Shown here one piece after another: positions 467 through 27,485 of a DNA stretch of 36,069 nucleotides; within the stretch, counting starts at the first letter, position 1; each line of letters begins with the position of its first letter. A program made the translations under genes and the position numbers. The notes below the pieces were generated by a model, which saw nothing but the letters and a program-made list of their open reading frames with translations, made no database searches and had not been told where the DNA came from. The DNA lies in IMG/VR virus record IMGVR_UViG_3300020045_019005, positions 1-36,069 of that record. One strand, given 5' to 3'. This stretch comes from a virus. Lineage: Duplodnaviria; Caudoviricetes.

Positions 467-469
467 AAA

Positions 470-1414: not shown

Positions 1415-1443
1415 TAAATCAACATCTAAGGGGTTAATTCACA

Positions 1444-1830
1444 ATGGATTTAAGAAAAAGTTTTGGGGTAAATGCCGATCAAGCCGAGAATGGTAAGTGG
1501 TTTGATTTGGAAGACGGCGGTTCTGTGAAAGTGGCCAAGTTCGGCAATCCCAAATGGGTTGCCGAATTGGTCAGACTTCGAAAACCTCACCTTGCAACCA
1601 TTCGAACCGGGACCTTGAGTGATGAGGTAACGACCGACATTACAGTAAAAGCCATGGCGAAAGGTATTTTGCTTGATTGGAAGAACATATCAATTGATGG
1701 TGAAGAGTTTCACCATTCGCTTGAAAATGCCGAAAAAATTCTTCATGAATACCCGGAATTTCGGGAAGCGATAGCACAAATCGCTTCTGACCGCAAATCA
1801 TTCTCTGTGGAAGATATCGCGGGAAAGTAG
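1444..1830 (+). CDS. Tail assembly chaperone (lambda gpG analogue)
   Basis: 128 aa between tube and tape measure genes, with ENGKWF and ILLDWKNI motifs. Ends in the slippery heptamer G GGA AAG just before TAG. Confidence 0.85.
   Translation: MDLRKSFGVNADQAENGKWFDLEDGGSVKVAKFGNPKWVAELVRLRKPHLATIRTGTLSDEVTTDITVKAMAKGILLDWKNISIDGEEFHHSLENAEKILHEYPEFREAIAQIASDRKSFSVEDIAGK
1821..1827 (+). promoter_or_regulatory. Programmed -1 ribosomal frameshift site GGGAAAG
   Basis: In-frame X XXY YYZ heptamer identical to the lambda G-T site. The -1 frame (GGG AAA GTA GCC ACC ATC ATT CTT TGG...) is open and continuous with ORF 1881..2099. Confidence 0.88.
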
Positions 1831-2099
1831 CCACCATCATTCTTTGGTATCGGAAGAATGGGAATAACCTTGACTGGTTTTTGCGGTTACAAGCAACTGG
1901 GGTCAAGGTTAAGGCACTAGATACCCTGCCGGAAATTGATGTTGTTGATGAGTTTTACCTCGATATGTATAATTCTTGTGGTACGGATTTTTCGGCAATT
2001 CTCGCTTATTGCGGTTTATATGAGCAAACCAACGAAGAGATAATCGAAGCTGTCAAAATTATGAAAATGGTGAGCATAAATGCCAGTAGTTCAACTTGA
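1821..2099 (+). CDS. C-terminal extension of the frameshifted chaperone (gpGT analogue)
   Basis: Open -1 frame from the slippery site to the stop at 2099, overlapping the tape measure start. Confidence 0.8.
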   Translation, partial: GKVATIILWYRKNGNNLDWFLRLQATGVKVKALDTLPEIDVVDEFYLDMYNSCGTDFSAILAYCGLYEQTNEEIIEAVKIMKMVSINASSST

Positions 2100-4464
2100 C
2101 CTCGATTCTAAAGATGCTGTAAAAGGGCTCGATAATTACGACAAAGCTGTCGATAAGTCTGAGCGAAATACTGACAGTGCTTTTTCTCGCATGAAAGCCT
2201 CTATAGGTGGTCTTGTGTTGGTGGCTACTGCTACCGCTACTGCTGTGGCTGCAGCATTCGCAACAATGGGGGCAAAAGGCCTTGATAGTGCCAGCCGTAT
2301 GCAGGAAGCACAAAACAAATACGATGTTGTGTTTACCGGCATGTCGGGTCAGGCCGATGCTTGGCGAACAAACCTTGAAAAAAATTATAATCTCTCTGGT
2401 TTAGCTGCCACAAAATATTTGGCCAACACGAAATCTATCCTTGATGCAACCGGCATGCAGTCAAAAGCTGCCGGTGAGCTATCAAACAATATGGTGAGAA
2501 TGGCTCTCGATTTGGCCAGTTTTGCCGATGTGCCCATTGCCGATGCCATTGAAGCAACGACCGCCGCACTCACTGGCGAAATGGAAATGATGAAAAGGTT
2601 CGGTATTGTAATCAGTGCCGATGAAGTAAGCCGCCGAGCCATGATTGAAAACCATATCCGAAATGCAAGTGCTTTGACGACTGCAATGAAAGCCCAAGCA
2701 ACTTATAACATCATGTTGGAGAAGGGGGCCAAGGCTGTCGGGGATGTTGAAAGGAGTTCTGCCTCATATGTTACCCAACTCAACAAATTACGCGCTTTAA
2801 ACGACGATGTGTCAACTGGAATGGGGCAACAACTTATTCCATTTGCAACCCAAGCTTCGCGGATCTTCCTTGAATGGGCAGGGTCAAATGACGCTGTGGC
2901 AACTTCCTCGAATGCGATGAATACCACTTTGAAGTATACCGTTGAAACAACCCGGTTTTTATACAATGGTTTTCAAGGGTTGGTTCAGATTGGGAATACT
3001 GTTGCGATTGGTATTGCTTATCTCACTGATACCATTGTGGGCATGGTGCAAATGACTGTTGGGCCTCTCCAAGCTCTCGGGGATGCAATGGTCAAATTTG
3101 GGGTGCTTGATGTAAACCCTTTTGAAAATTTAATTGCCGGGATAAACACGGCTCGGGAAGCAACTGAGCAATTTGTCGCCTCTTCCCAGGATGCTTTTAA
3201 TAATCAAGCGAAATCGATTGAAAGTGCCAACACCGCATTTGATAAGTTATCCGAATCTGTGGACAAACAACGGGTGGCTCAAACCAATGTTGCTCCAGCT
3301 ATCGACAATACTACCAGTGCTCTAAATAAGTCAAGTGATGCCGCCAATGTTCATATGGGAGTCGTTGAGAAAATGGCAATCACTTATAACAATGTGGGTA
3401 AAGATCTTTCGGGGATAATGGAAGAAGTCAACGGTGTTTGGACACAAGTAGCGGGGGCAACCGAAAACCTTTCAACCGCTATGACCAAAGTTAAAACCGC
3501 ATCGGCGGGAAATTTTACCGAGGAATCAGCCGAACAATATTTGAAATATAAAAGTGCTGTCGATTCTGCAAATAAAGCTGTCCAGGACCATGCAAAAGTC
3601 TTGGAGGTGGATGCCTCCCCCGCCGAGGTGAAACACCACCAAGCGCTTATAGCATTGTCGGATGCCGCGAAAAAACAGATGGAATCATTTGAAAAAAATG
3701 GGGAAGTGACGAAAAGATTGACTAAACATCATCGTGATTTCGGCGATAGTGTTGAACACAATACCGGGGTATTTAAAACAAATTTCGGTGCGATGAGCAC
3801 CATGACCGATCGAGCAAAATCTTTGGTAAGTGCTTATAATAGTGGGGATGCGTCGGTGCAGTCGCTTGAACAGAGTCACAGAGTATTAAGCAACATGATC
3901 AACAATTCAACGAAAGCCATGAGTTTCAGTCAGGATGCTGCTTATCGCAATGCTGTTGCCATGGATGCCGAGGTGGTAGCGGTGCTCAATGCCGCGAAAG
4001 CATGGGCACAATATGAAAAGGATTTGGAGACTTTCAAAAAATCGGGTACTGGAATCGGGCCGACTGCCCCAGGGTCAGAGAGTGCGGGATATACTGGCGC
4101 TGTCGGAATAATGAAGGGGTCAGTCGATGCGAAAGGTGGTCTGACTGAAGAGCAATGGAAAAGTTTACCTGAATCAGTACGGAACCAATTAGGACAAGCG
4201 GCACTCATGGGCACACAACAGTATACCATGGGGTTGGGGTTGTTGCCATCCCAGGGTGGAAAAGAGATTGTTTCATTATCAAAAGCGATAAACCCCGAGG
4301 GGGAGATAAATTTCCGAGCTCAACAAGCGTACCAATTTGAACAGTTGCAACGAGGCAATGACCCGACTCAAACGACCAACATTTATAATTTTAATCAATC
4401 TGTTTCGCGTTCAGATATCGAAAATATTACAACCAGCACAGCACGAAACACAGCGAGGGCATAA
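2080..4464 (+). CDS. Tape measure protein
   Basis: 794 aa, Ala-rich and helical, after the chaperones. Contains DLASF.D and ALTGEMEMMKRFGI tape-measure motifs. Confidence 0.92.
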   Translation: MPVVQLDLDSKDAVKGLDNYDKAVDKSERNTDSAFSRMKASIGGLVLVATATATAVAAAFATMGAKGLDSASRMQEAQNKYDVVFTGMSGQADAWRTNLEKNYNLSGLAATKYLANTKSILDATGMQSKAAGELSNNMVRMALDLASFADVPIADAIEATTAALTGEMEMMKRFGIVISADEVSRRAMIENHIRNASALTTAMKAQATYNIMLEKGAKAVGDVERSSASYVTQLNKLRALNDDVSTGMGQQLIPFATQASRIFLEWAGSNDAVATSSNAMNTTLKYTVETTRFLYNGFQGLVQIGNTVAIGIAYLTDTIVGMVQMTVGPLQALGDAMVKFGVLDVNPFENLIAGINTAREATEQFVASSQDAFNNQAKSIESANTAFDKLSESVDKQRVAQTNVAPAIDNTTSALNKSSDAANVHMGVVEKMAITYNNVGKDLSGIMEEVNGVWTQVAGATENLSTAMTKVKTASAGNFTEESAEQYLKYKSAVDSANKAVQDHAKVLEVDASPAEVKHHQALIALSDAAKKQMESFEKNGEVTKRLTKHHRDFGDSVEHNTGVFKTNFGAMSTMTDRAKSLVSAYNSGDASVQSLEQSHRVLSNMINNSTKAMSFSQDAAYRNAVAMDAEVVAVLNAAKAWAQYEKDLETFKKSGTGIGPTAPGSESAGYTGAVGIMKGSVDAKGGLTEEQWKSLPESVRNQLGQAALMGTQQYTMGLGLLPSQGGKEIVSLSKAINPEGEINFRAQQAYQFEQLQRGNDPTQTTNIYNFNQSVSRSDIENITTSTARNTARA

Positions 4465-4823
4465 TGATTTTCACATATGGTGCGACTGTTGTCACTCTCG
4501 ATTCTCCGGCTCAATACCCTCTTGTAAATAGTACCATGCTCGTCCAGGCAAAGGATAAATCAGCGTCAGGGGTGACCCATGTCGAAAGCTTCAATGTTCG
4601 GACAAACCTCTTCAATTATTCCTTTGTGGATATCAGTGATACCGATTATATAAAAATCATTGAGTTTTTCCTGAACGTCGTTGACGGCATGCTCTTGGAG
4701 TTTTTATTAACCGATGATTTGTCGGTTACCAGGACAGTCAGGTTTACCGAGCCGACTCTTAATTTCACAAAAAATAGTTACGGTTTGTGGTCCGGTAATT
4801 TTCAGGTAGAGGAAATTTTATGA
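4464..4823 (+). CDS. Distal tail / minor tail protein
   Basis: 119 aa coupled to the tape measure stop (TAATG). Position, VRF motif and C-terminal FQVEE are consistent with Dit-like proteins. Confidence 0.65.
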   Translation: MIFTYGATVVTLDSPAQYPLVNSTMLVQAKDKSASGVTHVESFNVRTNLFNYSFVDISDTDYIKIIEFFLNVVDGMLLEFLLTDDLSVTRTVRFTEPTLNFTKNSYGLWSGNFQVEEIL

Positions 4824-7705
4824 TAACCGACCTTGACCAAGAATTCCTTGACGAAATTGTAAAAACAAGTCGGTCACCTGTCCAGCTTTTGGAGTTTGTT
4901 TTACCCGACGAGATATTTTATTTGAGTGATAAAAATGTTGGTACACTTGAAGGATTGCTTCACGAATACCACCCATGGGTCGAGTCATGGGGAGAATTGA
5001 TTGATAATACTTCTGTCAGTAATGTGTTTGATGGGGAATCGCTTGAAATCCGCTCAGGAACCATAACACTTCTCGCTTCTCCAGATTCAAGGACTTTCAT
5101 CAAAAAACTTTTCCAAGCGGGGATTGAAAACACCGAAGTCCGGTTATATCAATGGTTTTCGGGCCTTATTATTGCTCCTCAATTGATAGATATTTTTGTC
5201 TGTCAAGATCCAATTTCCTTGGCCGAAAATTCGATGCTTTTAACAATTGATCTGGTTTCCCCTCTTATGGCCACAAACCCCTATTTGTGGGCACCGGATA
5301 TAGGGGTTGAGAGTCAGCCGGTTGTGATCGGTAAAGCCATTGGACTCCCTTTGAAAAACCTGCAAACCTCAGTTGTCACGAAACTGGCTCAAGATCTCCC
5401 GTATGATTTCACGGGGAACTGTTTTATTGAAAATGGGGTAGGTTTTACTGCTTCGGGGGTTGTGTCAATTGATGCTGAGGCAATAGCTTACAGCGCAATA
5501 ACTGCATCAATAATCACCATAACTGCAAGGGGACAGAATGGCACTACGGCGCGGCCACATTACAATGGGGGCACAGTGACGGAGTATGGTGCAATTTTTG
5601 ATTATGCTATTTGTAGCGGTCCTGTTGCTGCTGTTGATAATTTACTTGCAAATGGTGAAGAGTATATCAATCCTGTCACATTTCTTTTGAGTTCAAATCC
5701 TGTAATTGCCCGTTTTACAGGAAGACCGCCCTGGTTACGAATTGAAATCGGATCCGATGGTGATCCCGTTGTGCCCGATCCGGTCACAGTAACAGAGTAT
5801 GCGGGTGCATACAGAAACGACTTAGAAAATTATTCTAGGTCACCAGCGAATCCAGCCAATATAAACACTGAGGCAAATTTTGCCACAATGGCAATTGATA
5901 GCACTATTGGGGGCGGGAGTGGGGGAGTTTCCAGATATTCTACTGCTGTCTTTTTAAACAATCTCGGATCTAACAATTATCAAAAAATAGGCGGTAACAT
6001 AAACACTTCCGGGACCGGGTTATTATGGTCAAAATGTGGTACTTTTGGGAATGTGATAGATGACGCTCAAGGGTCTGTTGATGTTCAATATGGTTGGGAT
6101 GATTCAGCATTGGGTGATTTAGTATCGACTAAAGTTGTTATTGCTTTTGGGGGTGGGAATGATGTGATTGCTTCATCGTCTGCCCTCAGTATAATTTTTG
6201 TCGATGCTTCCGGAGGAGAGACAATTTTAGAAACATGGGCTGTTGCTGGTTTAAATTATGTGTTTGGTGATGGTTATATCCCACCCTGGAATTCAAAAAC
6301 ATTTGAATATAATGTATCTGTAGCCAATTTTGCTGATTTACAATTGTGTAGAGTACGGATATTGTTAAAAAATATTGAAGCTTTAAATAGTGACGGTTAT
6401 TCTATTGTCGAAGATAGAACAACAATTCGAATACAAAGTATCATTTGGAAAATTAATAATTTTGTTCATGCAGATGAAATTGGGCCACCCTCTCAATATT
6501 TGGTTGCCCATTTCAATAAGGATTTATCCCCGTTGGGCGATCTACTCAATGTTACTGTAAAAATAAAATCATCGACCACCATTGTTGACGCTGTAGGGGA
6601 GTTATATTTTTTAAAGCGATCTTGGGCCGCGCCCGGTGATGATGTGGTTTTGAATCATTTTTCGGGGATTACCGATAATATTGCGGTAAACGAATATGTA
6701 TTCAATCTTGGTGCAATAACATGGGCACAATTATCAAATTTAAGAATCGGAATAAAACAGGAAGTCATATCTCCGACAACTGAAGGAAGTGTTAGAAGAA
6801 TGACCACTATATTTCATTATGTCAAGTGGTTAATCGAATATCAACCTGCCGAAATACCGACCCCTGACGAATTACGGGTTGTTTATTCGGAAAATTTAAC
6901 ATGCGATGTAACGAGTATCATGGGTGAAAATCCCACACCGCCCCAAGTGGTGCAACATTTAATCGAAAATAACTCAAATTCCGGAGCCTATATTGATACT
7001 GTCAATTTTGCCGCAGAACATGCTTTGTATGATACCGAGACTTACTATTTAAACGGGGTACTCGATACCAATACCCGGTTGCATGACGGATTACGTACAG
7101 TGCTTGGAGAAGGGATGTGCCGGTTGATTTTCAATCAAGGCTTTATTAAAATTCTTTCTTATTTTGATGTTGATGATGCAACGATTGATCATACCGTGTC
7201 GCTTGATGAGGTGCAAATACGGTCCAGGAGAATCGATAATCAACCAACTGAACAAATAAAAAACGATGTTACAATCCTTTATAACCGAAACTATGTGGAA
7301 AATTTTTATAACGGAGAAATCCATTTACAAGATGACAATTCAATAACAAAATTCCAACTGAAGGATTTCAGAAAAGAGCTAAAGCTCATTAGTTCACCAG
7401 ATGTTGCCACACTCTTTGCAACCAGAATGTTGAGTATATTTTCCACACCGACAATAATCATATCCTTCAACATGTTTATGTCTGCCTATATCCTCGAAAA
7501 AGGCGATAGAATATCGATTCCGAGCTTTATTGATTCGCGGTTTAGACTGGTTGGGAGCATTTTATCAATAAGTCGAGTATTTGGGCAGGGGAAAACCTCA
7601 AAAATAAATACCTTCAATATTCAAGTTTACAACCCTCAATCATTGGCAAATCTGGAATTATCTGATACAGTGGTGATTGATGATAATTTAACAATGGGGA
7701 TTTGA
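4820..7705 (+). CDS. Tail tip / baseplate hub protein
   Basis: 961 aa with ATGA overlap. Has a P.VIG motif, ARGQNGTTARPH, and a C-terminal N.V.I.Y ... LEKGDRI hub-like region. Confidence 0.7.
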   Translation: MITDLDQEFLDEIVKTSRSPVQLLEFVLPDEIFYLSDKNVGTLEGLLHEYHPWVESWGELIDNTSVSNVFDGESLEIRSGTITLLASPDSRTFIKKLFQAGIENTEVRLYQWFSGLIIAPQLIDIFVCQDPISLAENSMLLTIDLVSPLMATNPYLWAPDIGVESQPVVIGKAIGLPLKNLQTSVVTKLAQDLPYDFTGNCFIENGVGFTASGVVSIDAEAIAYSAITASIITITARGQNGTTARPHYNGGTVTEYGAIFDYAICSGPVAAVDNLLANGEEYINPVTFLLSSNPVIARFTGRPPWLRIEIGSDGDPVVPDPVTVTEYAGAYRNDLENYSRSPANPANINTEANFATMAIDSTIGGGSGGVSRYSTAVFLNNLGSNNYQKIGGNINTSGTGLLWSKCGTFGNVIDDAQGSVDVQYGWDDSALGDLVSTKVVIAFGGGNDVIASSSALSIIFVDASGGETILETWAVAGLNYVFGDGYIPPWNSKTFEYNVSVANFADLQLCRVRILLKNIEALNSDGYSIVEDRTTIRIQSIIWKINNFVHADEIGPPSQYLVAHFNKDLSPLGDLLNVTVKIKSSTTIVDAVGELYFLKRSWAAPGDDVVLNHFSGITDNIAVNEYVFNLGAITWAQLSNLRIGIKQEVISPTTEGSVRRMTTIFHYVKWLIEYQPAEIPTPDELRVVYSENLTCDVTSIMGENPTPPQVVQHLIENNSNSGAYIDTVNFAAEHALYDTETYYLNGVLDTNTRLHDGLRTVLGEGMCRLIFNQGFIKILSYFDVDDATIDHTVSLDEVQIRSRRIDNQPTEQIKNDVTILYNRNYVENFYNGEIHLQDDNSITKFQLKDFRKELKLISSPDVATLFATRMLSIFSTPTIIISFNMFMSAYILEKGDRISIPSFIDSRFRLVGSILSISRVFGQGKTSKINTFNIQVYNPQSLANLELSDTVVIDDNLTMGI

Positions 7706-8154
7706 TGAAATCCAAAGTGAAAATAAAAGGGTCACTATATCTCAAAACTCTCCGCAAAGATGGGGTCATAACAATCCTTCTTGTGGAAAATACGCTTGTA
7801 AATTGGGCACTCATATCTTTTGCCGGGATACTGGCGGGTACAGCATGGCCGAGTGTTCTTACTCACATTGCGCTCGGTAACGGCACAACTCCGGTTGCTC
7901 TCACCGATACCACCTTAGAGAATGAGTTAGGGCGGTACGCAGCAACAGCTAGTCAACTTGCCCCCCCAAATGACAACACGGCACAATTTCAAATTCTTTT
8001 TGATGAAGGGGATGTTGTCGGTACATTTAATGAAGCGGGAATTTTCAGCGCTGACACCGGGGGAAACATGCTCAATAGAGTAGTATTTGGCGATTTCGTT
8101 GTGGGAGCAAGCGACACATTAACTGTTACTTGGCTCATAGAATTTGGTAATTGA
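7705..8154 (+). CDS. Conserved tail / baseplate-associated protein
   Basis: NTLVN, HIALGNGTT, DTTLENELGR, EAGIF and LTVTW form a pattern common in phage tail modules. ATG at 7705 (TGATG overlap). Confidence 0.65.
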   Translation: MKSKVKIKGSLYLKTLRKDGVITILLVENTLVNWALISFAGILAGTAWPSVLTHIALGNGTTPVALTDTTLENELGRYAATASQLAPPNDNTAQFQILFDEGDVVGTFNEAGIFSADTGGNMLNRVVFGDFVVGASDTLTVTWLIEFGN

Positions 8155-8155
8155 T

Positions 8156-10282
8156 ATGCGACATAAAATGACCGATCAAATGGCCGCTGTTCTCTATTTT
8201 CATCGTAAAAACCAGCGAGAAAAATTTTTTGGTTTGATTCGCACAGGGCTTATTTGGTATGCCCCTGATGGTGTTGATATTATCGGACTATCTGCCAGCG
8301 ACTACCTTTCAATCAGGCCAGAGCTACGATCAATATTTTTCAGTGATGCAGATACGAAGCGAAGCGACGAGGACATAGTCACCAATATTGAAGCAAGCCC
8401 CTATCTGAACAATGGGTGGGAGTTGGTCGGGAGGTCTGGAAAAGGTTACGCATTATTTGAGGAATATGCAGATATAGCCAAGCCGTACAGTTTTCTAGGC
8501 GCGTCCTACCCTCCTACTCCATCAGAAAGCCTACTTTTGCTTTATAATGATTTTGACGGAGGGCAAGAATCTCTCGTCGGACCTGACCCGACATACTCCT
8601 ACGATGGAGTGCAATATGACTTTGATGGTGTTTCTGTTGGCTCTGTGCCTGCATATCATCCAGGTAAGGGCATTTGGTGTGGCCCAGCGTATGCTAATTT
8701 GTTCACCGCTGGCCCGTCAGGTGGAGCACAAACTGTTAGTTTGACCGCAGTAAAGTATTGCCTACAGGTTTTCGATACTGGGACAGTAACCTGTAGTTAT
8801 GGCACAGCAACGGTTGAAAATCCTCTAAAGTTCCCCGCTACGGCAGGGGATACAGAGTTTACACCTAATGGTGCCGGTCGCTGGATGCTGTCAAAAGTTA
8901 CATCATCTGCTGCATCTCACGAAATGCCCTATGTTGCACCTGGAGTCTCAAAAGCGAGTGCCATAGGGACAACCACTAAAGGGTTGTCATTCACATTACC
9001 GTCTGCAATCGTTACATTGTTGAGTGGAAATGGGCCTATGACACTAGCCTGTCTTGCGTTCAACCCTGAGACAAACCACACCGGTGAGTATAACGCTGGG
9101 CTGCTTACGGTCACAAACGTAATGGCCGGAATTTTGAGTAAATCAAATTCCGGTCGGCTAGTGAAGGGTACAGATGGCACAACTGCATTAGATATAATTG
9201 ATACATGGAGTCCTAACGAGTTCCACTTGGGGCTGATACAAACTGATGGATCGGGTAATTTTAGGGTCGGTGCACGCAGGTTATCGGCTGATTTATTTCC
9301 AATAGAAGACGCTCAATATGGAACACTTACAGCCTTTGATGGTTCGTTTGCCCCTAGCAGCAATCCTATGCGAGTTGCTTTCGGGAATCTTGATCCAACA
9401 TGGATAAAGCAAATACAGCTATGGAACAAACAAGCCTCAACAGAAGAGATTATTGCGGCAACATACTATTGCAAACCAAAGCCAACGTCAAAAGGCGATA
9501 TAGAAATTTTTCTTGTGATGGGGCAATCAAACGCTGATGGTCGAGGTTTAATTACCGAATTATCTGGCGGTCTTTCTGCCTTTTACACATACGATCATAC
9601 CACACTCAAATGTTTAGATAAAGTAGCCGTAAAATCAGGTACAGGATTAACAGCGGCATCATTTATTGATGATGGATTAATGTTTTATTTGAGTAAAGAG
9701 AGGTCCACCATCAAAGGGAGGACAAGCCAAAATGTGCAGGCACCTGCAACATATTTTGGTGTTGAATTACCATATGGTTACTCCCATTTTACAGCACATC
9801 CGACTAATCCGTTGTGCATACTAAAAGCAGCAGTCGGAGGCACCGGAATTGAAACAAGTTGGAAGGTAACAACCCCAGATGCCGCGTCGTTGTGGAAGTG
9901 GTTTAAAACTACAATCCATAATCGTGCAATTAGTTGGTTGATAGAACAGGGATATAACCCAGTTATTAAAAAAGTATTTTGGATGCAGGGGGAAACTGAC
10001 GCAGACGCCGGTGTGTCAGAGGCTGCATATGCTGCGAGCCTAAGAGTTCTTGTCGGTAGGCTTAATACAGAACTGTATAACACTCCGACACAGATAATAA
10101 TAGGTGGTTTGTCTTCTGTGTATAACACAACAAACGGCACAAAAATCAAAAATGCACAACAAACAGTTGCTGGAGAATTTGACAATTGCGTGTATTTTTC
10201 AACTGATAGTTATGGTTTATCAGATATTCATTACACAGCGGCAGCATTAGAAACGATGGGCGCTGATTTGTTTAATTTATGA
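8156..10282 (+). CDS. Tail fibre / receptor-binding protein with C-terminal SGNH acetylesterase (SASA/DUF303-like) domain
   Basis: Last gene of the tail module. GQSNADG, AVGGTG, WMQGETD and DIHY blocks occur in SGNH order after a beta-rich, possibly LamG-like region. The ORF track starts at TTG 8144; ATG 8156 is preferred. Confidence 0.8.
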   Translation: MRHKMTDQMAAVLYFHRKNQREKFFGLIRTGLIWYAPDGVDIIGLSASDYLSIRPELRSIFFSDADTKRSDEDIVTNIEASPYLNNGWELVGRSGKGYALFEEYADIAKPYSFLGASYPPTPSESLLLLYNDFDGGQESLVGPDPTYSYDGVQYDFDGVSVGSVPAYHPGKGIWCGPAYANLFTAGPSGGAQTVSLTAVKYCLQVFDTGTVTCSYGTATVENPLKFPATAGDTEFTPNGAGRWMLSKVTSSAASHEMPYVAPGVSKASAIGTTTKGLSFTLPSAIVTLLSGNGPMTLACLAFNPETNHTGEYNAGLLTVTNVMAGILSKSNSGRLVKGTDGTTALDIIDTWSPNEFHLGLIQTDGSGNFRVGARRLSADLFPIEDAQYGTLTAFDGSFAPSSNPMRVAFGNLDPTWIKQIQLWNKQASTEEIIAATYYCKPKPTSKGDIEIFLVMGQSNADGRGLITELSGGLSAFYTYDHTTLKCLDKVAVKSGTGLTAASFIDDGLMFYLSKERSTIKGRTSQNVQAPATYFGVELPYGYSHFTAHPTNPLCILKAAVGGTGIETSWKVTTPDAASLWKWFKTTIHNRAISWLIEQGYNPVIKKVFWMQGETDADAGVSEAAYAASLRVLVGRLNTELYNTPTQIIIGGLSSVYNTTNGTKIKNAQQTVAGEFDNCVYFSTDSYGLSDIHYTAAALETMGADLFNL

Positions 10283-11808: not shown

Positions 11809-11930
11809 TTCTTATTTTCCTCCCTTGTGGGAACATTAATACATGGTTCCCATTTCTTTGTTTTCGGATTCCAAATGTACCAAAGGTTGTTAATTTTTTT
11901 GTATTTTTTTCTGCTCGATAAACTTTCCAT
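11805..11930 (-). CDS. Possible 41-aa protein (MESLSSRKKY...WYIWNPKTKKWEPC...)
   Basis: Hand-translated. Fills the gap after the PAPS-reductase-like gene and its stop overlaps the next start (ATGA). GGAGG lies only 3 nt from the ATG. Confidence 0.3.
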   Translation of the reverse strand: MESLSSRKKYKKINNLWYIWNPKTKKWEPCINVPTREENKK

Positions 11931-13077
11931 AAGCCTCCGATTTTGGTTGTTGCATCCCAAGCCCTTTGCACCACCAATCGTTCCTCAACAATACTTTACA
12001 CAAGCGTCTCCAAGATGGAGCCCAATATTTTTTTTCCAATTCATAAGGTGCCTCATCGGGAATTTTATCATAACCTCGGCGTTTCCAACCTGCTATAAAT
12101 TTAACAAATCGCTCAATATAGTGATCTCTGGTAACTTTCGGCATGGTCCGTAACAAAAGCTTGCAGAACGATTGCCAGGTGTGCCCATCTGGTTTTATGA
12201 TTTTATTATAACCGTTTATATTTCCGGTTTCTTGAACATAGAGAGCCCCACTGTTTACTCCATTTACCCGAACAATGAGCTTATACCATGTTTCCGGTTC
12301 AAGAAGGTGATATAACCATAGCCCTCGACGTTGATCATCACCGTATGGTTGGCACAAGCGCATTTGTGAAGGTTTTACTCCAGCTTTATTCATTTGCTCA
12401 TATATCTTGTTGTATGGTTTTTCGGGATATTTTGAATGATATTTCCAAATATCCCCTGTGTTCCAATCGTAAATTGGGTAAAAATTGAAAAGGTTTTCCA
12501 AAACTTCAGTTGAATAACTCTTGTCTTCATATTTGGTTTTATATTTTGAAGCAATTGTCCTGAATCGATTCAAACTTTCATCACATCGAATACCAACAAG
12601 ACAGGCAGTCTTTTTACCATCACTATACCATTCCCCGAATAGAACAATAAATTCCTCAAATTCCATATCGTTTTTGTAAAAAGGAAAACTGGTATATACA
12701 TTCGGGTGTTTTGGTTTCTCTCTTACCCACAATTCTTTCTGATCTTCGTCCCAAGCGGTCCAAGTGGGTTGATAATTACTTACAGCATTCCGCAACTTCA
12801 TCGGAACACAAACCCAAAACACTTCAATATGATCTTTATAAATTTCTAACATTTCCTCAATATGAAAAATTGTGTGGGAATATTGGGCCTCTAAGTCTAT
12901 TATCAGTATTCCTATCTTTCTATTTCTTTTCTGTGCTTCTTCCATTGCTAAATGAAACATTACCGAACTATCTTTACCGCCAGAAAATGATAAATATATT
13001 GATTGAAACTCATCAAAAATAAATGAAATTCGTTCTCTTGCGGCAGATAAAACATTTTGATCGGTATATTTTTTCAT
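11890..13077 (-). CDS. PAPS-reductase-like PP-loop protein with DUF3440 (IbrA/YbdN family)
   Basis: PP-loop SFSGGKDS, IDLEAQY, GIRCDESLNR, YPIYDW, RLCQPYGDDQRRGL and PSWRRLCKVLLRNDWWCKGL. Confidence 0.9.
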   Translation of the reverse strand: MKKYTDQNVLSAARERISFIFDEFQSIYLSFSGGKDSSVMFHLAMEEAQKRNRKIGILIIDLEAQYSHTIFHIEEMLEIYKDHIEVFWVCVPMKLRNAVSNYQPTWTAWDEDQKELWVREKPKHPNVYTSFPFYKNDMEFEEFIVLFGEWYSDGKKTACLVGIRCDESLNRFRTIASKYKTKYEDKSYSTEVLENLFNFYPIYDWNTGDIWKYHSKYPEKPYNKIYEQMNKAGVKPSQMRLCQPYGDDQRRGLWLYHLLEPETWYKLIVRVNGVNSGALYVQETGNINGYNKIIKPDGHTWQSFCKLLLRTMPKVTRDHYIERFVKFIAGWKRRGYDKIPDEAPYELEKKYWAPSWRRLCKVLLRNDWWCKGLGMQQPKSEAYGKFIEQKKIQKN

Positions 13078-14177
13078 TAATATATATCCATTCTGACTTT
13101 TTCTATTTCAGTAACAATGGGAAAATTGTTTTTTGATAACCAGATGTTTAAATATTTCAAAGCTGTTTCGTCCGCTTGTTTTTTTTGACGTTCTGATAAG
13201 AGATTATAACCGTTTCTAAAATAGGAAGGAATTTTGTGATAATAACAAAGGGAGGCTTGACCTAACCAAGCGACCCTATTCATTGAATCATTTGTTAAAT
13301 AATGCTCACAGGAATATTTCCATTCCGATATCACTTTTTCTAGTGTTTTTTCAAATAATGGGATATCACAAAGAAAAGTAGCGTAACTTATTTCACAAGA
13401 TTCTTTTGTCATACCTTTTGGGGGGTGTGTCTCATAAAACCCGGCCTTGTAACATTCCCAATTATCGTATGTGTGCAGAATTCTCGTTTCTTTTGCTTCT
13501 TTATCTGGTTCTATATTTTCCTCGTTTAAGACAAAATCAATGTCGTCTTCTGACATAAAGTCTATGTCCCATGACTTTGAAAAACTTTCATCAGAAAACA
13601 ATTCTGTTAAACCGGATATTTGGCATAGTCGTAATACTTCATCCTGGTCCATACCTAACTCTTTTCCGATTTTTTTAGCGGACCAATTGCGTCTCTTTAA
13701 TTCTATGACAATTTCGCTCATAGAATCCACTTTGTGCTTACCTCTTGCTCTATTGTGTCGAATAGTAGATGCGATTCTGTCCGATCTCTCAGTATTCTCA
13801 GATTTTACATTTACAACCGGGAGATAACCAAAAACTCTATCCCTTACATCCGGGAATTCTTTGCAAACACGGGTTCTGTGAAAACCGTCTATTACTTCTC
13901 GCCTTCCGCTTTCTTCAACCCATGTTACAACGGGTTGTGTATACCCGTCATGGTTAATGGAATGTCTGAGTAATTCCATTTCTGGAGGGGCCACCGAATT
14001 TGGATTATAATCGTTAGCAAAAACATTATCTTCTTTTACCCACAATACGCAGTCAACGGGTTCATTTTTAAATGGTGACAAACTGTGCAAGAGAGCTTTT
14101 AAACTGTTTATCCTTTCAACTCTTTTATCTAGTTCAACGATTGAGATTATTTCCTGTATTATTAATATATCAATCAT
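13077..14177 (-). CDS. ParB/Srx-like protein (IbrB/YbdM family) fused to an extra C-terminal domain
   Basis: NDYNPNSVAPPEM, DGYTQPVV, IDGFHR, STIRHNRARGKH and an HTH-like segment, then about 135 aa (HTYDNWEC...NRVAWLGQA). ATG 14177 preferred over the ORF-track start 14288. Confidence 0.88.
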   Translation of the reverse strand: MIDILIIQEIISIVELDKRVERINSLKALLHSLSPFKNEPVDCVLWVKEDNVFANDYNPNSVAPPEMELLRHSINHDGYTQPVVTWVEESGRREVIDGFHRTRVCKEFPDVRDRVFGYLPVVNVKSENTERSDRIASTIRHNRARGKHKVDSMSEIVIELKRRNWSAKKIGKELGMDQDEVLRLCQISGLTELFSDESFSKSWDIDFMSEDDIDFVLNEENIEPDKEAKETRILHTYDNWECYKAGFYETHPPKGMTKESCEISYATFLCDIPLFEKTLEKVISEWKYSCEHYLTNDSMNRVAWLGQASLCYYHKIPSYFRNGYNLLSERQKKQADETALKYLNIWLSKNNFPIVTEIEKVRMDIY

Positions 14178-14245
14178 AGGGGTTGCCCGAAGAACAGAAT
14201 TATTAAGTAAAGTGCAATTATGGTCCGAAAGATAAATATTGTCAT
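14174..14245 (-). CDS. 23-aa hydrophobic peptide MTIFIFRTIIALYLIILFFGQPL
   Basis: ATGA overlaps at both ends (polymerase stop and ParB-like start). Confidence 0.5.
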   Translation of the reverse strand: MTIFIFRTIIALYLIILFFGQPL

Positions 14246-16005
14246 GATTTTTTCCCCTTGGTAAATGCGAGTAATTTTTTTGCTTCATTAATGTACCACA
14301 AATAATTCAAATTTGATAATTTACCGTTGAAAGTGTTGCACTCGGTTGCAAGATAACCGACATTGATACCAATTTTGCGCCATATTCCGGGATTTTTCGC
14401 CAATGGGGGCATGTGCTTGACAAGTGGTGCCCCATTCCTGCTGACATAGTATCGAGTGACGTTTTGCACTTGCCTATCCCCAAGCAAAAGTTTCGAGGAT
14501 CTGGGCACTTTGGTACACAAAAGAAAGTCCCAAGGATCCTTGTGGGTAGCTATGAACAATTCAAGGTCAGCGTCATCGAAAAGAACAGCTTTTACCGCTT
14601 TTGGTATGATGAGTGCCGAGTGATCTTTGTACCATTCCCGTTTAACTAGATATTCGCCTTTGTCTTTCACTTTTCCATCGGGATATTTAGCAATGTAGTT
14701 GTTCACATCCCTAATAAACATATGAGTATATTGTACTTCTTCAAGCTCCAATAAAGTAAATTCTTGCCACCATTTACAAATATCTCGAAATCTATTTAAT
14801 TGATCGGGAGGACATTGAACAGTAACCCCATCGGTATTTGCTTGGATAAGTCGTAAACCGGGAATATCAATTATTTGATCAATGAGCATGCATAAAAGGA
14901 GTTGCCCGTTTATGGTTATAGATAAAAATGCTTTTCTATCTCTCAGCCACCCATATTCCATACCCATTTGACCAAATGGGCCATTTAAAGAAAATTTTAA
15001 TGCCTTGTTTTCGGTTGTTCCTTTTTTAAAACTCAACCTTCTTTTTTTAATATCTGCCCAAACTTGACAAAATATAGTTCCCAAATGTTCAGGGTAGAAT
15101 TGATTTTGAATCGCTATTGATGGGTAATAGCTCACCACATCTACATCATAAATATTTCCGATTATCGCTTGTGATTTTACGCTTCCATGAATTCCGCCTT
15201 CCCCCAACCTTAATTTGAAATCACCTAAGCAAATATTGATATTTTGAGCGGTTTTAAATTGTTCCCTAATTGCTCTCAATTGTGGAGTTTTGAATTGAAT
15301 ATATGGTAAAATTACATTTGACAATGGAATGTGATTTTGTTCTGTTCCGTCAGGAAACCGTCTAGTACATCCGGGATTTGTTTTTTCTAATTCTTCTCGG
15401 AAATATTCAGTCCCAATTTTTACATCATTATAATTAACCCATCTTCTTCGATTTAATGATTCTCTAAATTTGATTTCGTTTTCCGAGAACTTTAAGAATT
15501 TCTCAGTTTCGAGAACATCATGAAGGTTGTATTTTAAAAGGATATCCATTTGTGGTTCGGTCAACCATGTGCCAGGCGGGAAAGGTAATTCTTGGATAGT
15601 GGTTGACCGCATTTTAAATTCAAGCGATTTGAGACTTGTTCGCTTTGCTTTATTGTCAAAATGGTGAATTTTGAAAAGGTCAAGCTGTGGGACATATTGG
15701 TTATCATCCCGAATGATATGAGCAAACTTGTCTTCGGAGTTGATCAATTGAGCACACTTGTCATATGCGAGTTCGGCACTTGCCCGGTTATTTATAACAA
15801 AATGTAAAAGTGGGTAGTCATACCTCAAATTGTTAAAACCCACCATCCTACCCTGATTGTTTCGTAAATAGGTCAGAAATTGGATAATCAAATCAATGTC
15901 ATTACGTCTATGGCTTATTTCAAATTGCCAAATAGATCCACCCTGTTTTACGGTCATGGTGAAAATATTCGGGAAACTTTCTAAGTCATAAACGTAATTG
16001 ATCAT
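14242..16005 (-). CDS. Family B DNA polymerase with 3'-5' exonuclease
   Basis: Exonuclease motifs YDLES, GFNNLRYD and YNLHDV. Polymerase motifs DVVSYYPS, KFSLNGPFG and NTDG. Confidence 0.92.
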   Translation of the reverse strand: MINYVYDLESFPNIFTMTVKQGGSIWQFEISHRRNDIDLIIQFLTYLRNNQGRMVGFNNLRYDYPLLHFVINNRASAELAYDKCAQLINSEDKFAHIIRDDNQYVPQLDLFKIHHFDNKAKRTSLKSLEFKMRSTTIQELPFPPGTWLTEPQMDILLKYNLHDVLETEKFLKFSENEIKFRESLNRRRWVNYNDVKIGTEYFREELEKTNPGCTRRFPDGTEQNHIPLSNVILPYIQFKTPQLRAIREQFKTAQNINICLGDFKLRLGEGGIHGSVKSQAIIGNIYDVDVVSYYPSIAIQNQFYPEHLGTIFCQVWADIKKRRLSFKKGTTENKALKFSLNGPFGQMGMEYGWLRDRKAFLSITINGQLLLCMLIDQIIDIPGLRLIQANTDGVTVQCPPDQLNRFRDICKWWQEFTLLELEEVQYTHMFIRDVNNYIAKYPDGKVKDKGEYLVKREWYKDHSALIIPKAVKAVLFDDADLELFIATHKDPWDFLLCTKVPRSSKLLLGDRQVQNVTRYYVSRNGAPLVKHMPPLAKNPGIWRKIGINVGYLATECNTFNGKLSNLNYLWYINEAKKLLAFTKGKKS

Positions 16006-24358: not shown

Positions 24359-24688
24359 ATGGGAGCAAAAGCAACTGATTTTACCGGGAGATTGATTAGG
24401 AATTGTGATGTGTTGGGTATTGATGAGCAAAGCGGGGGCACTGGTCACCATGTGAAGTGGCATTGCAAGTGCCGGAAGTGTGGGGCACTCTTGCGGGTAC
24501 GGTCCAATAGTCTCTCTAGGGGGATGACAGGCCACATTTGCGAAAGTGAAAAGGGTGAACCTAATTTGGATTTGGTGAGCGATACAAACTTTATACCACC
24601 CGTAAGACGGAAGCGCCGACCAATGACACATGAAGAGCTTGGGAAGCATGAAGCATATTTATATCTGGCAGCGAGGGGATTGAGATGA
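24359..24688 (+). CDS. Hypothetical Cys-containing protein resembling the N-terminus of phage HNH/AP2 endonucleases
   Basis: DFTG...WHCKCRKCG....RSNSLSRG.T pattern, but no HNH catalytic domain follows. Confidence 0.5.
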   Translation: MGAKATDFTGRLIRNCDVLGIDEQSGGTGHHVKWHCKCRKCGALLRVRSNSLSRGMTGHICESEKGEPNLDLVSDTNFIPPVRRKRRPMTHEELGKHEAYLYLAARGLR

Positions 24689-24945
24689 GACAGGGTAAAT
24701 TTGACAAGTTGTTGGAGCGACGGATTGAATTGATAAAGAGTGTTTTGTCGTCAAAAGGGGAGGAGTATGGTACAAGTGATCGTTTGCACAACTTTAAAGT
24801 TGCTGCAAATATTGGTCATTTTCTGAACAAGCATTGCTCGGTATGATGCGAAAACATATCGTATCTGTGCTTGACATGATTGAATGGGGAGCCAAGGACC
24901 GAGCCCAAATTGATAAAAAAATATAATTATCTCATTTTGTTTTTG
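24685..24945 (+). pseudogene. Frameshifted all-alpha nucleotide-metabolism-associated protein (DUF1599 / MazG-like)
   Basis: KGEEYG..DRLHNFKVAA, then in another frame EQALLGMMRKHIVSVLD, then in a third frame NYLIL. Confidence 0.6.
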
Positions 24946-24951
24946 TGGAAA

Positions 24952-25350
24952 CTAACAAATAATAGTGTAGGAGTTTTAGAGCCTAACAAAAAACACCTAA
25001 CAACAAAATTGACAAACAATAGTGTAGGAGTTTTTTATTGACAGAATGTTAGTGTAACAAGCCCACAGTGAGGACCGGGATATAATAAGCGGGCATCACT
25101 GTGGGCTTCTGTATTTTTAAGTAATATTAAAGAGTTAGTCGATTTGTGGCCCGAAGCCCGTTGTGAGTCTATATTCCCACTCTCCACGGTTAATATTAAC
25201 CTATATATATACTACATATATTACTCTTTATATATGTAGTATATATACTATATATATTCACAGTGGGATTATAGAGGGATATATATAGGAAATTATTGAA
25301 AAATTTGAAAGCCCGGTGTTTTTGGTATGGGTTTGTAACGGGCTTTTCGT
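24952..25350. other. AT-rich non-coding region with direct repeats and nested inverted repeats; candidate replication origin
   Basis: AATAGTGTAGGAGTTTT at 24961 and 25018; 13-bp IR 25059-25071/25096-25108; palindrome GGTTAATATTAACC 25188-25201; 18-bp IR 25204-25221/25230-25247. Confidence 0.6.
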
Positions 25351-25665: not shown

Positions 25666-25689
25666 TAATTAAACTAAAAGGGGTTTGTG

Positions 25690-26079
25690 ATGATTGACAA
25701 TGAAAATTTTTGGGTTGATGAGAATAATAATAAATGGGACAAAAGATTTTTCACCCGTGAGAAAGCGGAGAAATTTTCTAAAAGTTGCCAGGACTGCCAG
25801 AACTGCCAGAACTGCCAGAACTGCCAGAACTGCTGGAACTGCTGGAACTGCCAGAACTTTAAAACCGACCCCAATAAGATTATTTTAAAGAATGTAGGAA
25901 GTCGCAATTCTACCATTTTTATTTATTGGTTATGTGATAGAAATCAAATTATTTGTGGTTGTTTTAATGGACCATTTTTAGAGTTTGAGAAAGCTGTCGA
26001 AAAAACCCATGGTGACAATGACCACGGTTTGCAATATAGGGAAATAATGTCTAGAGTGTGGGAGTTGATGGAATTATGA
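25690..26079 (+). CDS. Cys-x-x repeat protein with conserved GSR...CGCF.G...EF...V..TH C-terminal domain
   Basis: Eight C(Q/W)(N/D) triplets, then a domain I recognise from phage pentapeptide / beta-helix repeat proteins. Confidence 0.7.
   Translation: MIDNENFWVDENNNKWDKRFFTREKAEKFSKSCQDCQNCQNCQNCQNCWNCWNCQNFKTDPNKIILKNVGSRNSTIFIYWLCDRNQIICGCFNGPFLEFEKAVEKTHGDNDHGLQYREIMSRVWELMEL
25786..25857 (+). repeat. 9-bp tandem repeat, 8 copies (consensus TGCCAGAAC)
   Basis: Read directly; variants TGCCAGGAC and TGCTGGAAC. Confidence 0.95.
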
Positions 26080-26249
26080 GAAATCCGCCAGGAAGACCAA
26101 AATTACCCCAAGGTGAGAAGAAGGTGACGGTGAGTATCAAGCTTCACCCGACCATCGTATTGAAGCTTGATATAATGGGTCGGTCACGATCTGAGACAAT
26201 AACGAGACTTATCAAAGGTGAAGTGCTTGGTTGGGGCAAGTACCGATAG
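26076..26249 (+). CDS. Small ribbon-helix-helix-like DNA-binding protein
   Basis: GRPKLP.GEKKVTVSIKL...SRSETI; ATGA overlap with the upstream gene. Confidence 0.6.
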   Translation: MRNPPGRPKLPQGEKKVTVSIKLHPTIVLKLDIMGRSRSETITRLIKGEVLGWGKYR

Positions 26250-26280
26250 TGGCAAGGTCCATCGCGTAGTCAGCTGCGCC

Positions 26281-26343
26281 GGTAACAGACGCCCAAACTA
26301 AACCACGGTGCTGTTTCCGCGTCGGCTTTATTGGTTGTTATAT
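26281..26343 (-). mobile_element. Degenerate attC-like site 1
   Basis: Minus strand: ATATAAC aacca ATAAAGCCGA CGCGG aaacagca CCGTG GTTTAG...; the distal arm is eroded. Shares TCGGCTTTATTG-3 nt-GTT with site 2. Confidence 0.5.
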
Positions 26344-26356
26344 GGTGAGGTGATAC

Positions 26357-26563
26357 ACGGTATGTAAAGAGTGCGGGATACCAGTTTTTGAAAACGAATA
26401 CCGCCCTTTTGCGGGCTGTTTGATGTATAAGGCTTGTGGAAGTAGTCGGACAGTTACCGCAAACTTAAAATCGATAAGAGATAGTGCTGTCGAATACTGC
26501 GCTCTGAGTTGCGACAAGGATTTTCTTGAAGCAGCAAAAATGATACGAGAGTTACAGAAATAA
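26357..26563 (+). pseudogene. Cassette-like ORF with defective start (ACG): VCKECGIP...EYRPFAGCLMYKAC...
   Basis: Open 68-codon frame after a GAGGTG RBS. ACG sits where ATG is expected and an in-frame TGA lies at 26351. Confidence 0.5.
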
Positions 26564-26581
26564 CCGAACATGTTTGGAGTG

Positions 26582-26645
26582 AGTTAACGTGCGGATAAAT
26601 CCGTTGCCGGGCCGTTTCGGTAATCGGCTTTATTGTCTGTTGGGT
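26582..26645 (-). mobile_element. attC-like site 2 (64 bp)
   Basis: Minus strand: ACCCAAC agaca ATAAAGCCGA TTACCG aaacggcc CGGCAA CGG ATTTAT ccgcac GTTAACT, i.e. RYYYAAC, 5 nt, L box, stem with a bulge, L box, 6 nt, GTT. Confidence 0.68.
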
Positions 26646-26663
26646 AAATAGCAAGGAAATTAT

Positions 26664-26834
26664 ATGCCAAGTAAAATTTATATGATTTGTAACAGTTATG
26701 AGTCTGGTTATGGTCACGGGTGCAAAAACGACGGGTCTGACCTGAAGAAAACACCCCACGATGACAAAGAATGCGGGGAGGCATACAAAAGAGATCAAAA
26801 CAAACGGGATTGCTTCGACTGCGATCCTATGTAG
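26664..26834 (+). CDS. 56-aa cassette-like hypothetical protein (MPSKIYMICNSYESGYGHG...)
   Basis: AAGGA RBS just after attC-like site 2; the stop TAG abuts GCCCAAC. Confidence 0.6.
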   Translation: MPSKIYMICNSYESGYGHGCKNDGSDLKKTPHDDKECGEAYKRDQNKRDCFDCDPM

Positions 26835-26860
26835 CCCAACAGTGCAATAAGTGGACAAGT
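26834..26860 (-). mobile_element. Terminal recombination half-site (attI-like or truncated attC)
   Basis: Minus strand CTTAT tgcact GTTGGGC has the same L box-6 nt-GTTRRRY spacing as site 2. No partner arm seen. Confidence 0.45.
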
Positions 26861-26886
26861 CTGGACACACTAATTATGTGTTGTTT

Positions 26887-26915
26887 TTGACAACCTAGAT
26901 TTAGTATGGTATTTT
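26887..26915 (+). promoter_or_regulatory. Sigma70-type promoter for the packaging/head operon
   Basis: TTGACA-17 nt-TATTTT with an extended -10 TGn. Confidence 0.65.
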
Positions 26916-26921
26916 GTGGGA

Positions 26922-27485
26922 ATGAAAAAGAAAGAAACAGATTGGGAATATGGCGAGCGCCTTTATAGGTTGGGGCAAGTATCGGCCAGCGAAGTGGGGA
27001 AAATTATAGGCTGCAACCCCAATACTGTCATTTCCCACATGAAAAAGCGGGGTATAAAGCAAGACCTTGTTTCCGAGGTGCAACGGCGAACAAAAGAGGC
27101 TATAATGGTCGCCCCGCGATGTACCGAAACAGATGAGAAGGTCATTGTTGAGGCAGTAAATACCAATGTTGCGCTTGTAATGTCGCATCGTAAGGACTTG
27201 CAGAAATTACGGGCGCTTGAAAATAAATTCTATCGGGAATTGCGAGATAATCCAACAAAGCTTTATCTCGCAAATTATTTGGGGGAAGTTATTGAAAAAG
27301 AGATTGGTCTCACCATTTCGGAAAAACTTTCTGCATTGGCCAATCTTGCCAAAGTGCAGGAAAAACGTATAGACAAGGAGCGTCAGGCATTCGGTTTGAA
27401 AAATGATTATGAGGAACCGAACAAGGAAAAAATGGTGCTCAATATCAATTTAAGGGGTGCAAAAAATGCCGGAAAGAAGAGCTAA
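26922..27485 (+). CDS. Terminase small subunit (putative)
   Basis: N-terminal DW...E..YR.G HTH and C-terminal ERQAFGL; lies upstream of the large subunit. Confidence 0.75.
   Translation: MKKKETDWEYGERLYRLGQVSASEVGKIIGCNPNTVISHMKKRGIKQDLVSEVQRRTKEAIMVAPRCTETDEKVIVEAVNTNVALVMSHRKDLQKLRALENKFYRELRDNPTKLYLANYLGEVIEKEIGLTISEKLSALANLAKVQEKRIDKERQAFGLKNDYEEPNKEKMVLNINLRGAKNAGKKS

What the first reader, a model, noticed from the sequence alone, without database searches (positions are those of the whole stretch)
26281..26860. Integron-like attC cassette array in a phage that has no integron integrase
Seen: two intergenic imperfect hairpins share TCGGCTTTATTG-3 nt-GTT (26322, 26624). On the minus strand site 2 reads ACCCAAC-5 nt-ATAAAGCCGA-stem-CGGATTTAT-6 nt-GTTAACT. 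Each site is followed on the + strand by an RBS and one short ORF. Known: this is the R''-L''-L'-R' layout of integron attC sites, which IntI recombines as folded single strands. Seen: no tyrosine recombinase motifs in the ORF track. Inference: the phage uses, or used, a host IntI in trans to gain and shuffle accessory genes, which would be a phage gene-capture platform. The sites are degenerate and there are only two plus a half-site, so it may be a relic.
Basis: partly seen in the sequence, partly recalled or inferred. Interest (0 to 1): 0.88.

Follow-up and report, generated by a model that had tools for sequence, protein, structure and literature searches.

The report
Worn integron-type cassettes in a phage
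Two small phage genes lie between DNA hairpin sites shaped like those that bacteria use to swap genes; close relatives of one gene sit in intact cassettes in other viral and metagenome contigs, but here the sites lack a key base and are likely a worn-out relic of a known kind of element.

Summary
Cassette 2 (26588-26839) is real. The five closest of 13 loci with a homolog of its gene have an attC-type site just upstream. Four of the five start with GTTGGG and three end with GCCCAAC, like the window copy. In these arrays the genes lie on the strand bearing the extrahelical G, the reverse of class 1 integrons.

The window's own sites are poor attC sites. Both lack the extrahelical G16. Site 2 scores 1.8 bits on a covariance model I built, against 38-66 bits for eight held-out sites. 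Site 1 has a broken left arm, and the third site is only a half-site. ORF1 has ACG where ATG is expected, and ORF2 has lost a conserved motif.

Best reading: a decayed, integrase-less cassette pair, not a working capture platform. No close relative was found to test swapping. Phage attC clusters without integrase are published (Qi 2023), and this scan has noted reversed phage arrays on other DNA before. Open point: G16-less sites also occur in hairpin arrays of AT-rich phages, so the missing base may be native.

The parts
26076..26249 (+). Upstream flanking gene, ribbon-helix-helix-like by motif only (recalled resemblance; no Pfam, PHROG or NCBIfam hit)
26257..26343 (+). Site 1, broken attC-like site. 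Long reading: left end has ATC in place of AAC (26261-26263), GC-rich stem with a bulged T at 26322. Short reading 26280-26343: TAAC end with a 5-nt insertion in the spacer
   Evidence: 2.1 bits; 12.1 bits, E 3.8
26322..26339 (+). First copy of the shared right arm (bulged T, L-box half without G16, 5-nt spacer, GTT)
26357..26563 (+). ORF1, 68 aa, widespread CxxCG-E[YF]xP family of unknown function; ribosome-binding site at 26347, start codon is ACG (lost or near-cognate start); stop TAA overlaps AAATAAC
26558..26564 (+). AAATAAC, probable far end of cassette 1 (3 of 4 outer bases pair with GTTATAT at 26337)
26564..26587 (+). 24-nt stub between two AAC cores; unexplained, possibly the scar of an imprecise recombination
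   Evidence: sequence
26582..26645 (+). Site 2, full-length attC-like site: AAC, 6 nt, L duplex without extrahelical G, bulged T at 26624, 5 nt, GTTGGGT; the + strand has bottom-strand geometry
26664..26834 (+). ORF2, 56 aa, member of a gene family found in attC cassettes; lacks the conserved IGY(E/N/D)(A/G)G motif of its homologs
26834..26840 (+). GCCCAAC half-site ending cassette 2; pairs with GTTGGGT at all 7 positions (one G-T); no attC hairpin or attI-type direct repeats follow
26887..26915 (+). Sigma-70-like promoter match (10 of 12, extended -10) in front of terS; points away from the cassettes
26916..27485 (+). Terminase small subunit, downstream flanking gene
   Evidence: phrog_1206, E 1e-17

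Best explanation
The stretch 26257-26840 holds one clear and one probable integron-type gene cassette, which were likely inserted by an integron integrase supplied from outside this phage and have likely since decayed. Shown: cassette 2 has self-complementary ends, the same ends as homologous cassettes elsewhere, and its gene lies on the strand with attC bottom-strand geometry. Inferred steps: (1) in phage arrays of this type the + strand folds and is cut between AA and C of the AAC at the left of each hairpin, so a cassette runs from that C through hairpin and gene to the next AA; (2) a circular cassette 2, whose junction is predicted to fold well, was joined by IntI to a plain secondary site in front of the terS promoter, leaving the half-site GCCCAAC; (3) the enzyme came from the host or a co-infecting phage, since this contig encodes none; (4) the genes would be read from upstream phage promoters, with no Pc needed; (5) the sites and both genes then accumulated damage. 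Site 2 may keep some activity, because G16 deletions did not abolish IntI1 recombination in published tests, but strand choice would be weakened.
For: ORF2 homolog loci: 5 of 13 (L104, L121-L124; 74-79% identity, the five closest) have an attC-type site just upstream, found by scanner or model in four and by eye in L104. Four of those five start with GTTGGG, as does the window, against 16 of 236 array sites overall; three end in GCCCAAC like the window. In these arrays the ends of one cassette pair fully in 186 of 226 cases versus 55 of 226 for the two ends of one site; window cassette 2 scores 4 of 4. The modelled circle junction has a recombinogenic-fold probability of 0.56, versus 0.08 for site 2 in place. 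Site 2 is the top box-model hit in the window (21.5 bits, next 11.4) and scores 0.7 in the opposite orientation. It aligns end to end with the covariance model with its one stem gap at the G16 column. Genes start on the G16 strand alone at 182 of 260 array sites and on the other strand alone at 5. IntI link: viral contig L201 has 11 such sites followed by direct repeats and an IntI above the TIGR02249 cut-off, and L123, which carries the ORF2 cassette, has an IntI fragment. Complete phage G005 has 10 sites and an ORF2 homolog but no tyrosine recombinase, so supply in trans is plausible. Decay: ACG start although 128 of 150 ORF1 homologs keep the upstream CxxCG motif and six have their first Cys at residue 3; motif loss in ORF2. 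Published: GWT secondary sites (10.1101/2022.09.11.507474) and tolerance of G16 deletion (PMC5027507).
Against: The covariance model gives no window hit below E 8.8; sites 2 and 1 score 1.8 and 2.1 bits. With the G16 deletion unpenalised, 7 of 200 whole-window shuffles still reach site 2's box score. Both sites lack G16 at the same place, which independent decay explains badly; only 6 of 242 array sites lacked it, at least two of them artefacts. Site 2 also has A-T where 67 of 78 training sites have T-A beside G16. Predicted folding shows no strand bias (0.076 versus 0.081). Eight of 13 ORF2 homolog loci and all 16 ORF1 homolog loci have no site, so cassette 1 rests on weak ends only. The test of which gene the hairpin travels with favoured the downstream gene in all sites (27 versus 7 pairs) but was inconclusive once pattern-selected sites were removed (3 versus 6). 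No close relative, empty site or circle was seen.
Confidence: 0.58

Rival explanations
1. The sites are not decayed but are native members of a G16-less hairpin class seen in arrays of AT-rich phages, served by a recombinase other than classical IntI; the array may still work.
For: Both sites share the same G16-less arm. A family with the same 6/5 spacing and an unbulged ATAAA/TTTAT duplex exists in viral contigs, with conserved spacers that the search pattern did not demand. Five of 11 such loci have a second hairpin site on the same strand within 4 kb. A model of that family ranks sites 2 and 1 first and second in the window (19.3 bits, E 0.16; 12.1 bits, E 3.8).
Against: That model was trained on sites picked with a window-derived pattern, so part of the match is by construction; it is still not significant, against 47-61 bits for its training members. 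One training site (L360) proved to be a likely terminator after a capsid-region gene. The window sites keep the right-arm bulged T and GC-rich stem of classical sites. ORF2's relatives sit in G16-bearing arrays. A scan for the window's exact type gave 1 viral match, of the AT-rich type, and 37 genome matches, none in an array. Six viral contigs with an apparently real G16-less site (G002-G004, G006-G008, G010 minus none; 7 tested) had no PF00589 match.
Confidence: 0.17
2. The block is real cassette DNA but arrived by ordinary phage mosaic recombination from another phage's array; IntI never acted in this lineage.
For: The donor pool is in viral contigs. The left boundary is ragged. Qi et al. 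suggest illegitimate or off-target homologous recombination for phage CALINs (PMC9892861).
Against: The right boundary falls exactly at the AAC core with nothing of a hairpin after it, as site-specific insertion would leave. The left end has ATC, which fits the GWT secondary-site rule, though any three bases match easily.
Confidence: 0.17
3. The hairpins are terminators or chance look-alikes between small accessory genes.
For: Both right arms score as terminator-like stems with T tails (5 found versus 1.5 +/- 1.4 in shuffles). The covariance model is negative. No Rfam family matches.
Against: It does not explain the matching ends shared with homologous cassettes, or that the best site in 36 kb lies 18 nt upstream of a known cassette gene; no hit of that score arose in 1.2 Mb of locally shuffled sequence. 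A present-day role as weak terminators is compatible with a cassette origin.
Confidence: 0.08

Closest known systems
CALINs in phage genomes (Qi et al. 2023, PMC9892861; main text read, supplement searched)
   Same: Short cluster of attC-type sites and single genes in a phage without integrase; 5 of 6 tested phage sites were recombined by IntI1.
   Different: In TJE1 (L133) the three sites carry G16 and the genes lie on the top strand. Here genes lie on the bottom strand, G16 is missing, and only one site is full length.
Integron attC sites and cassettes (class 1 control L156; Nivina et al. 2016, PMC5027507, passages read)
   Same: AAC and GTT cores, 6/5 spacers, paired L boxes, a second extrahelical T, complementary cassette ends; the right arm of site 1 resembles the class 1 site in L156.
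   Different: No G16; A-T instead of T-A next to it; no predicted strand bias; gene orientation reversed; no intI, attI or Pc.
attG secondary-site insertions (bioRxiv 10.1101/2022.09.11.507474, passages read)
   Same: Cassettes inserted outside an integron at GWT triplets leave half-sites, as at 26834-26840 and perhaps 26261-26263.
   Different: Shown for bacterial chromosomes in the laboratory; here inferred for a phage, with no empty allele to confirm it.

Membership tests
attC site | AAC and GTT cores bounding a hairpin, with 5-6 nt spacers and paired L boxes | tested here: met
   Site 2 only; not met for site 1 or the half-site
attC site | Extrahelical G (G16) on the L'' arm | tested here: not met
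   Gap at that column in both sites; box score falls from 21.5 to -3.5 if the slot is required
attC site | Second extrahelical T on the same arm | tested here: met
   T at 26624 and 26322 is bulged in the predicted folds, one base nearer GTT than in G16 sites
attC site | Recombinogenic fold accessible and favoured on the bottom strand | tested here: inconclusive
   Probability 0.076 (+) and 0.081 (-); 27 of 78 training sites are as low or lower; 0.56 for the modelled circle junction
attC site | Significant covariance-model score | tested here: not met
   Home-made model R1: 1.8 and 2.1 bits; held-out controls 30-66 bits
attC site | IntegronFinder or HattCI call | not testable with these tools
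attC site | Recombined by IntI as a folded single strand | not testable with these tools
   Needs the conjugation assay
integron gene cassette | One gene between cores whose outer bases are complementary across the cassette | tested here: met
   Cassette 2: 4 of 4; cassette 1: 3 of 4
integron gene cassette | Same gene found as a cassette in other contexts | tested here: met
   ORF2: 5 of 13 loci; ORF1: 0 of 16
integron gene cassette | Gene on the top strand, ending at its own attC | tested here: not met
   Gene lies on the bottom-geometry strand
CALIN | At least two called attC sites close together (Qi: 20 bits or more, within 3 kb) | tested here: not met
   No site passes model R1
CALIN | No integron integrase nearby | tested here: met
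   record linear, CheckV 71%
complete integron | intI gene | tested here: not met
complete integron | attI with direct repeats, and Pc facing the array | tested here: not met
   No likeness by eye to the junctions of L156, L201, L123; no minus-strand promoter match near 26840
G16-less short sites of AT-rich phages (unnamed) | Unbulged L duplex at 6/5 spacing | tested here: met
   Site 2; partly by construction of the search pattern
G16-less short sites of AT-rich phages (unnamed) | Conserved A-rich left spacer and short T-rich loop; significant model score | tested here: inconclusive
   Site 2 19.3 bits, E 0.16, spacer unlike; site 1 has a similar spacer with a 5-nt insertion, E 3.8

The most novel reading that the evidence does not exclude
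The G16-less sites are a native, working class, and the same cargo gene (ORF2 family) moves between classical IntI-type reversed phage arrays and a second, G16-less hairpin system. Phages would then share one cassette pool across two single-strand recombination systems, borrowing either enzyme in trans.
Probability: 0.15. Interest if true: 0.75.

Novelty: new variant of a known kind. Interest (0 to 1): 0.4.

Why it matters
It adds a phage in which an accessory gene can be traced to a pool of integron-type cassettes whose genes face the opposite way from bacterial integrons. That layout lets phage promoters read the cassettes and suggests phages use IntI in trans. This copy is small and worn, so it is a weak example; G005 (L104) and G011 (L201) are much better test cases. 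Its one distinctive feature is two sites without G16, which standard covariance screens would likely miss, so such screens may undercount phage cassettes.

Tried and rejected
Relatives: terS found no relative in viral contigs; terL found 9 loci at 36-46% identity, none with an R1 hit; blastn of 26240-26920 against 50,697 phages gave only chance matches, best E 2; both cargo proteins had no match there; site 2 had only chance matches in plasmids.

Reads: one run was listed with a 0.07 share and no RNA holder was listed; laying it gave two 151-nt contigs in terS-terL and nothing over the array, so no evidence on circles.

Patterns: the shared 18-nt motif gave 94 viral matches, about what I estimate by chance, with no BLAST likeness to the window. 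The G16-less pattern gave 37 genome matches, none in arrays. Rfam gave no match.

Recoding of TGA in ORF1 was considered and dropped: the ribosome-binding site points to ACG at 26357, and homologs need no residues upstream of it. I did not test alternative codes.

L137 and L156 turned out to be ordinary bacterial-type integrons and serve only as controls; they are included in the pooled array counts. Recombinase hits in L328, L357 and G009 are far from any real site. A window-fitted rule hit site 2 and two other places in 2.7 Mb, with 0 in shuffles; it is circular and not counted. Two misaligned rows and one false site were dropped before building R1 and the box model. Atlas look-alikes were under the bar: a ribosome-modulation-factor-like fold for the ORF2 family is a lead only. 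Cluster membership of the homologs could not be queried, so the DNA context of the nearest ORF1 homolog (P0004) is unknown.

Full report
Setting. The window is a whole 36,069-base viral record, linear, CheckV 71%. It has head, tail, terminase, DNA polymerase, helicase and primase genes. It begins with the tail terminator and ends in an open ORF after the head-closure gene, so I infer that little is missing. No tyrosine recombinase was found by Pfam, PHROGs, a six-frame PF00589 search that rang in 14 of 14 control genomes, or IntI1 tblastn. The finding lies between a small RHH-like gene (stop at 26249) and a promoter match in front of terS (26887-26915).

Observation. The shared motif is at 26322 and 26624 and nowhere else exactly. 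Site 2 spans 26582-26645 and reads as described. On the + strand it is AAC, 6 nt, a duplex of ATAAA with TTTAT, a stem with one bulged T at 26624, 5 nt, GTT. Site 1 has the same right arm, but its left arm is broken in either of two readings. GCCCAAC at 26834 is a half-site. ORF1 has a ribosome-binding site followed by ACG. Of 150 homologs, 128 keep a CxxCG-E[YF]xP motif that begins two residues after this codon, and six have their first Cys at residue 3, so the true start is likely this ACG. ORF2 matches its homologs for 41-42 residues and then lacks their conserved IGY motif.

The cargo gives the strongest evidence. Thirteen loci with an ORF2 homolog were fetched. The five closest (74-79%) have an attC-type site directly upstream: L121-L123 by scanner, L124 by model, L104 by eye. 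The other eight (49-70%, two near-duplicate pairs among them) have no model hit. Four of the five cassettes begin GTTGGG, a start seen in only 16 of 236 array sites, and three end GCCCAAC. The window copy begins GTTGGGT and ends GCCCAAC. A modelled circle of 26588-26839 would carry a site whose recombinogenic fold has probability 0.56, against 0.08 for site 2 as it stands. ORF1 gives no such support: 0 of 16 homolog loci have a site, though these are only 43-66% alike, and the context of the nearest homolog could not be fetched.

The pool it comes from. A pattern scan returned 109 viral loci with 92 distinct matches, 75 with the extrahelical G. Their neighbours form arrays. Ends of one cassette pair at all four outer bases in 186 of 226 cases, against 55 of 226 within one site, as expected after shuffling at the core. 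Genes start on the G-bearing strand alone at 182 of 260 sites and on the other strand alone at 5. In the class 1 control L156 and in phage TJE1 the genes lie on the other strand. In L201 the array runs into direct repeats and an IntI above the TIGR02249 cut-off, on the same strand. L123, which carries the ORF2 cassette, has an IntI fragment at the same place. Complete phage G005 has 10 sites and no tyrosine recombinase. In the window the half-site sits where those junctions do, but the terS promoter follows and I see no attI-like repeats. Whether the hairpin travels with the downstream gene was supported only with pattern-selected sites included (27 versus 7 pairs; 3 versus 6 without).

The sites fail strict tests. 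I built a covariance model from 49 G16-bearing sites not chosen by the window-derived pattern. It found held-out sites at 30-66 bits and nothing in 17 plus 25 other loci. It found nothing credible in the window. Site 2 aligns end to end with a gap at G16 but scores 1.8 bits. A box model that allows the deletion at no cost ranks site 2 first at 21.5 bits, just under the 5th percentile of training sites (22.9); 7 of 200 whole-window shuffles reach it. Nivina et al. (PMC5027507, passages) report that removing G16 keeps bottom-strand recombination but favours the top strand, so absence of G16 does not prove inactivity.

The unexplained point. Two sites lack the same base. Either one arm was copied from the other, or the lack is native. 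G16-less sites with the same spacing exist in AT-rich viral contigs, and 5 of 11 have a second hairpin site nearby on the same strand. A model of them ranks the two window sites first and second, but at E 0.16 and 3.8 and with circular training. The window sites keep the right-arm T bulge and GC-rich stem of classical sites, and I found no array made of their exact type. I give the native reading 0.17.

Mechanism and comparison. Most likely an IntI from the host or another phage inserted bottom-strand cassettes at a plain secondary site before terS, and the pair then decayed. Insertion at GWT triplets is shown for chromosomes in 10.1101/2022.09.11.507474 (passages), and Cury et al. list secondary-site insertion as a source of CALINs (PMC4889954, passages). 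It works like an integron cassette. It is not a member of the attC or CALIN families on strict terms, since G16, model score and gene orientation fail. Qi et al. (PMC9892861; main text read; supplement searched) found 17 phage CALINs and showed IntI1 recombination for 5 of 6 sites, so the concept is known. I did not find the reversed layout or G16-less phage sites in nine library searches (PMC11551772 passages, added nothing). The library lacks most subscription papers, and bioRxiv supplements are closed. This scan has already noted reversed phage arrays and arrays without extrahelical bases on other DNA; those are unchecked notes, not support.

Verdict. Real cassette DNA, small and worn, in a known broad category with two unusual features. 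Interest 0.4.

Noticed in passing
window 24685-24926: A phrog_6802-like gene is split by a frameshift; the second half continues in another frame. Another damaged accessory gene, or an assembly error.
   Followed up: partly
window 24949-25259: Two 29-nt direct repeats (90% alike), a 19-bp inverted repeat and nearly AT-only palindromes just downstream of the primase region; candidate replication origin.
   Followed up: no
window 25777-25866: A 9-nt tandem repeat encodes Cys-x-Asn/Asp repeats in ORF 25687-26079.
   Followed up: no
window 26564-26587: 24-nt stub with an 8-bp palindrome between two AAC cores; unexplained.
   Followed up: no
window 11890-14288: PAPS-reductase/DUF3440 gene paired with a ParB-like gene; resembles IbrA/IbrB-type pairs (name recalled), possibly DNA modification.
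   Followed up: no
window 8144-10282: Tail-region protein with a C-terminal SASA carbohydrate acetylesterase domain, a likely surface-polysaccharide-modifying fibre.
   Followed up: no
L201 (G011) 350-5661: Viral contig with 11 reversed attC sites, an attI-like junction with two direct repeats and an IntI cut by the contig end: an apparently complete phage-borne integron with reversed genes, some resembling DNA methyltransferases by eye.
   Followed up: partly
L123 1607-2000: Reversed array carrying the ORF2 cassette, followed by an attI-like junction and an IntI N-terminal fragment that abuts lysis genes.
   Followed up: partly
L325 2018-2885: A methyltransferase-like gene between terminase and portal genes is bounded by a long hairpin site and a short G16-less site. 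In L299, L293, L317, L325 and L306 the short site is the last of its row.
   Followed up: partly
P0004: The nearest ORF1 homolog (70%) is called from an internal Met and also lacks the CxxCG start, so a non-ATG start may be shared; its DNA could not be fetched.
   Followed up: no
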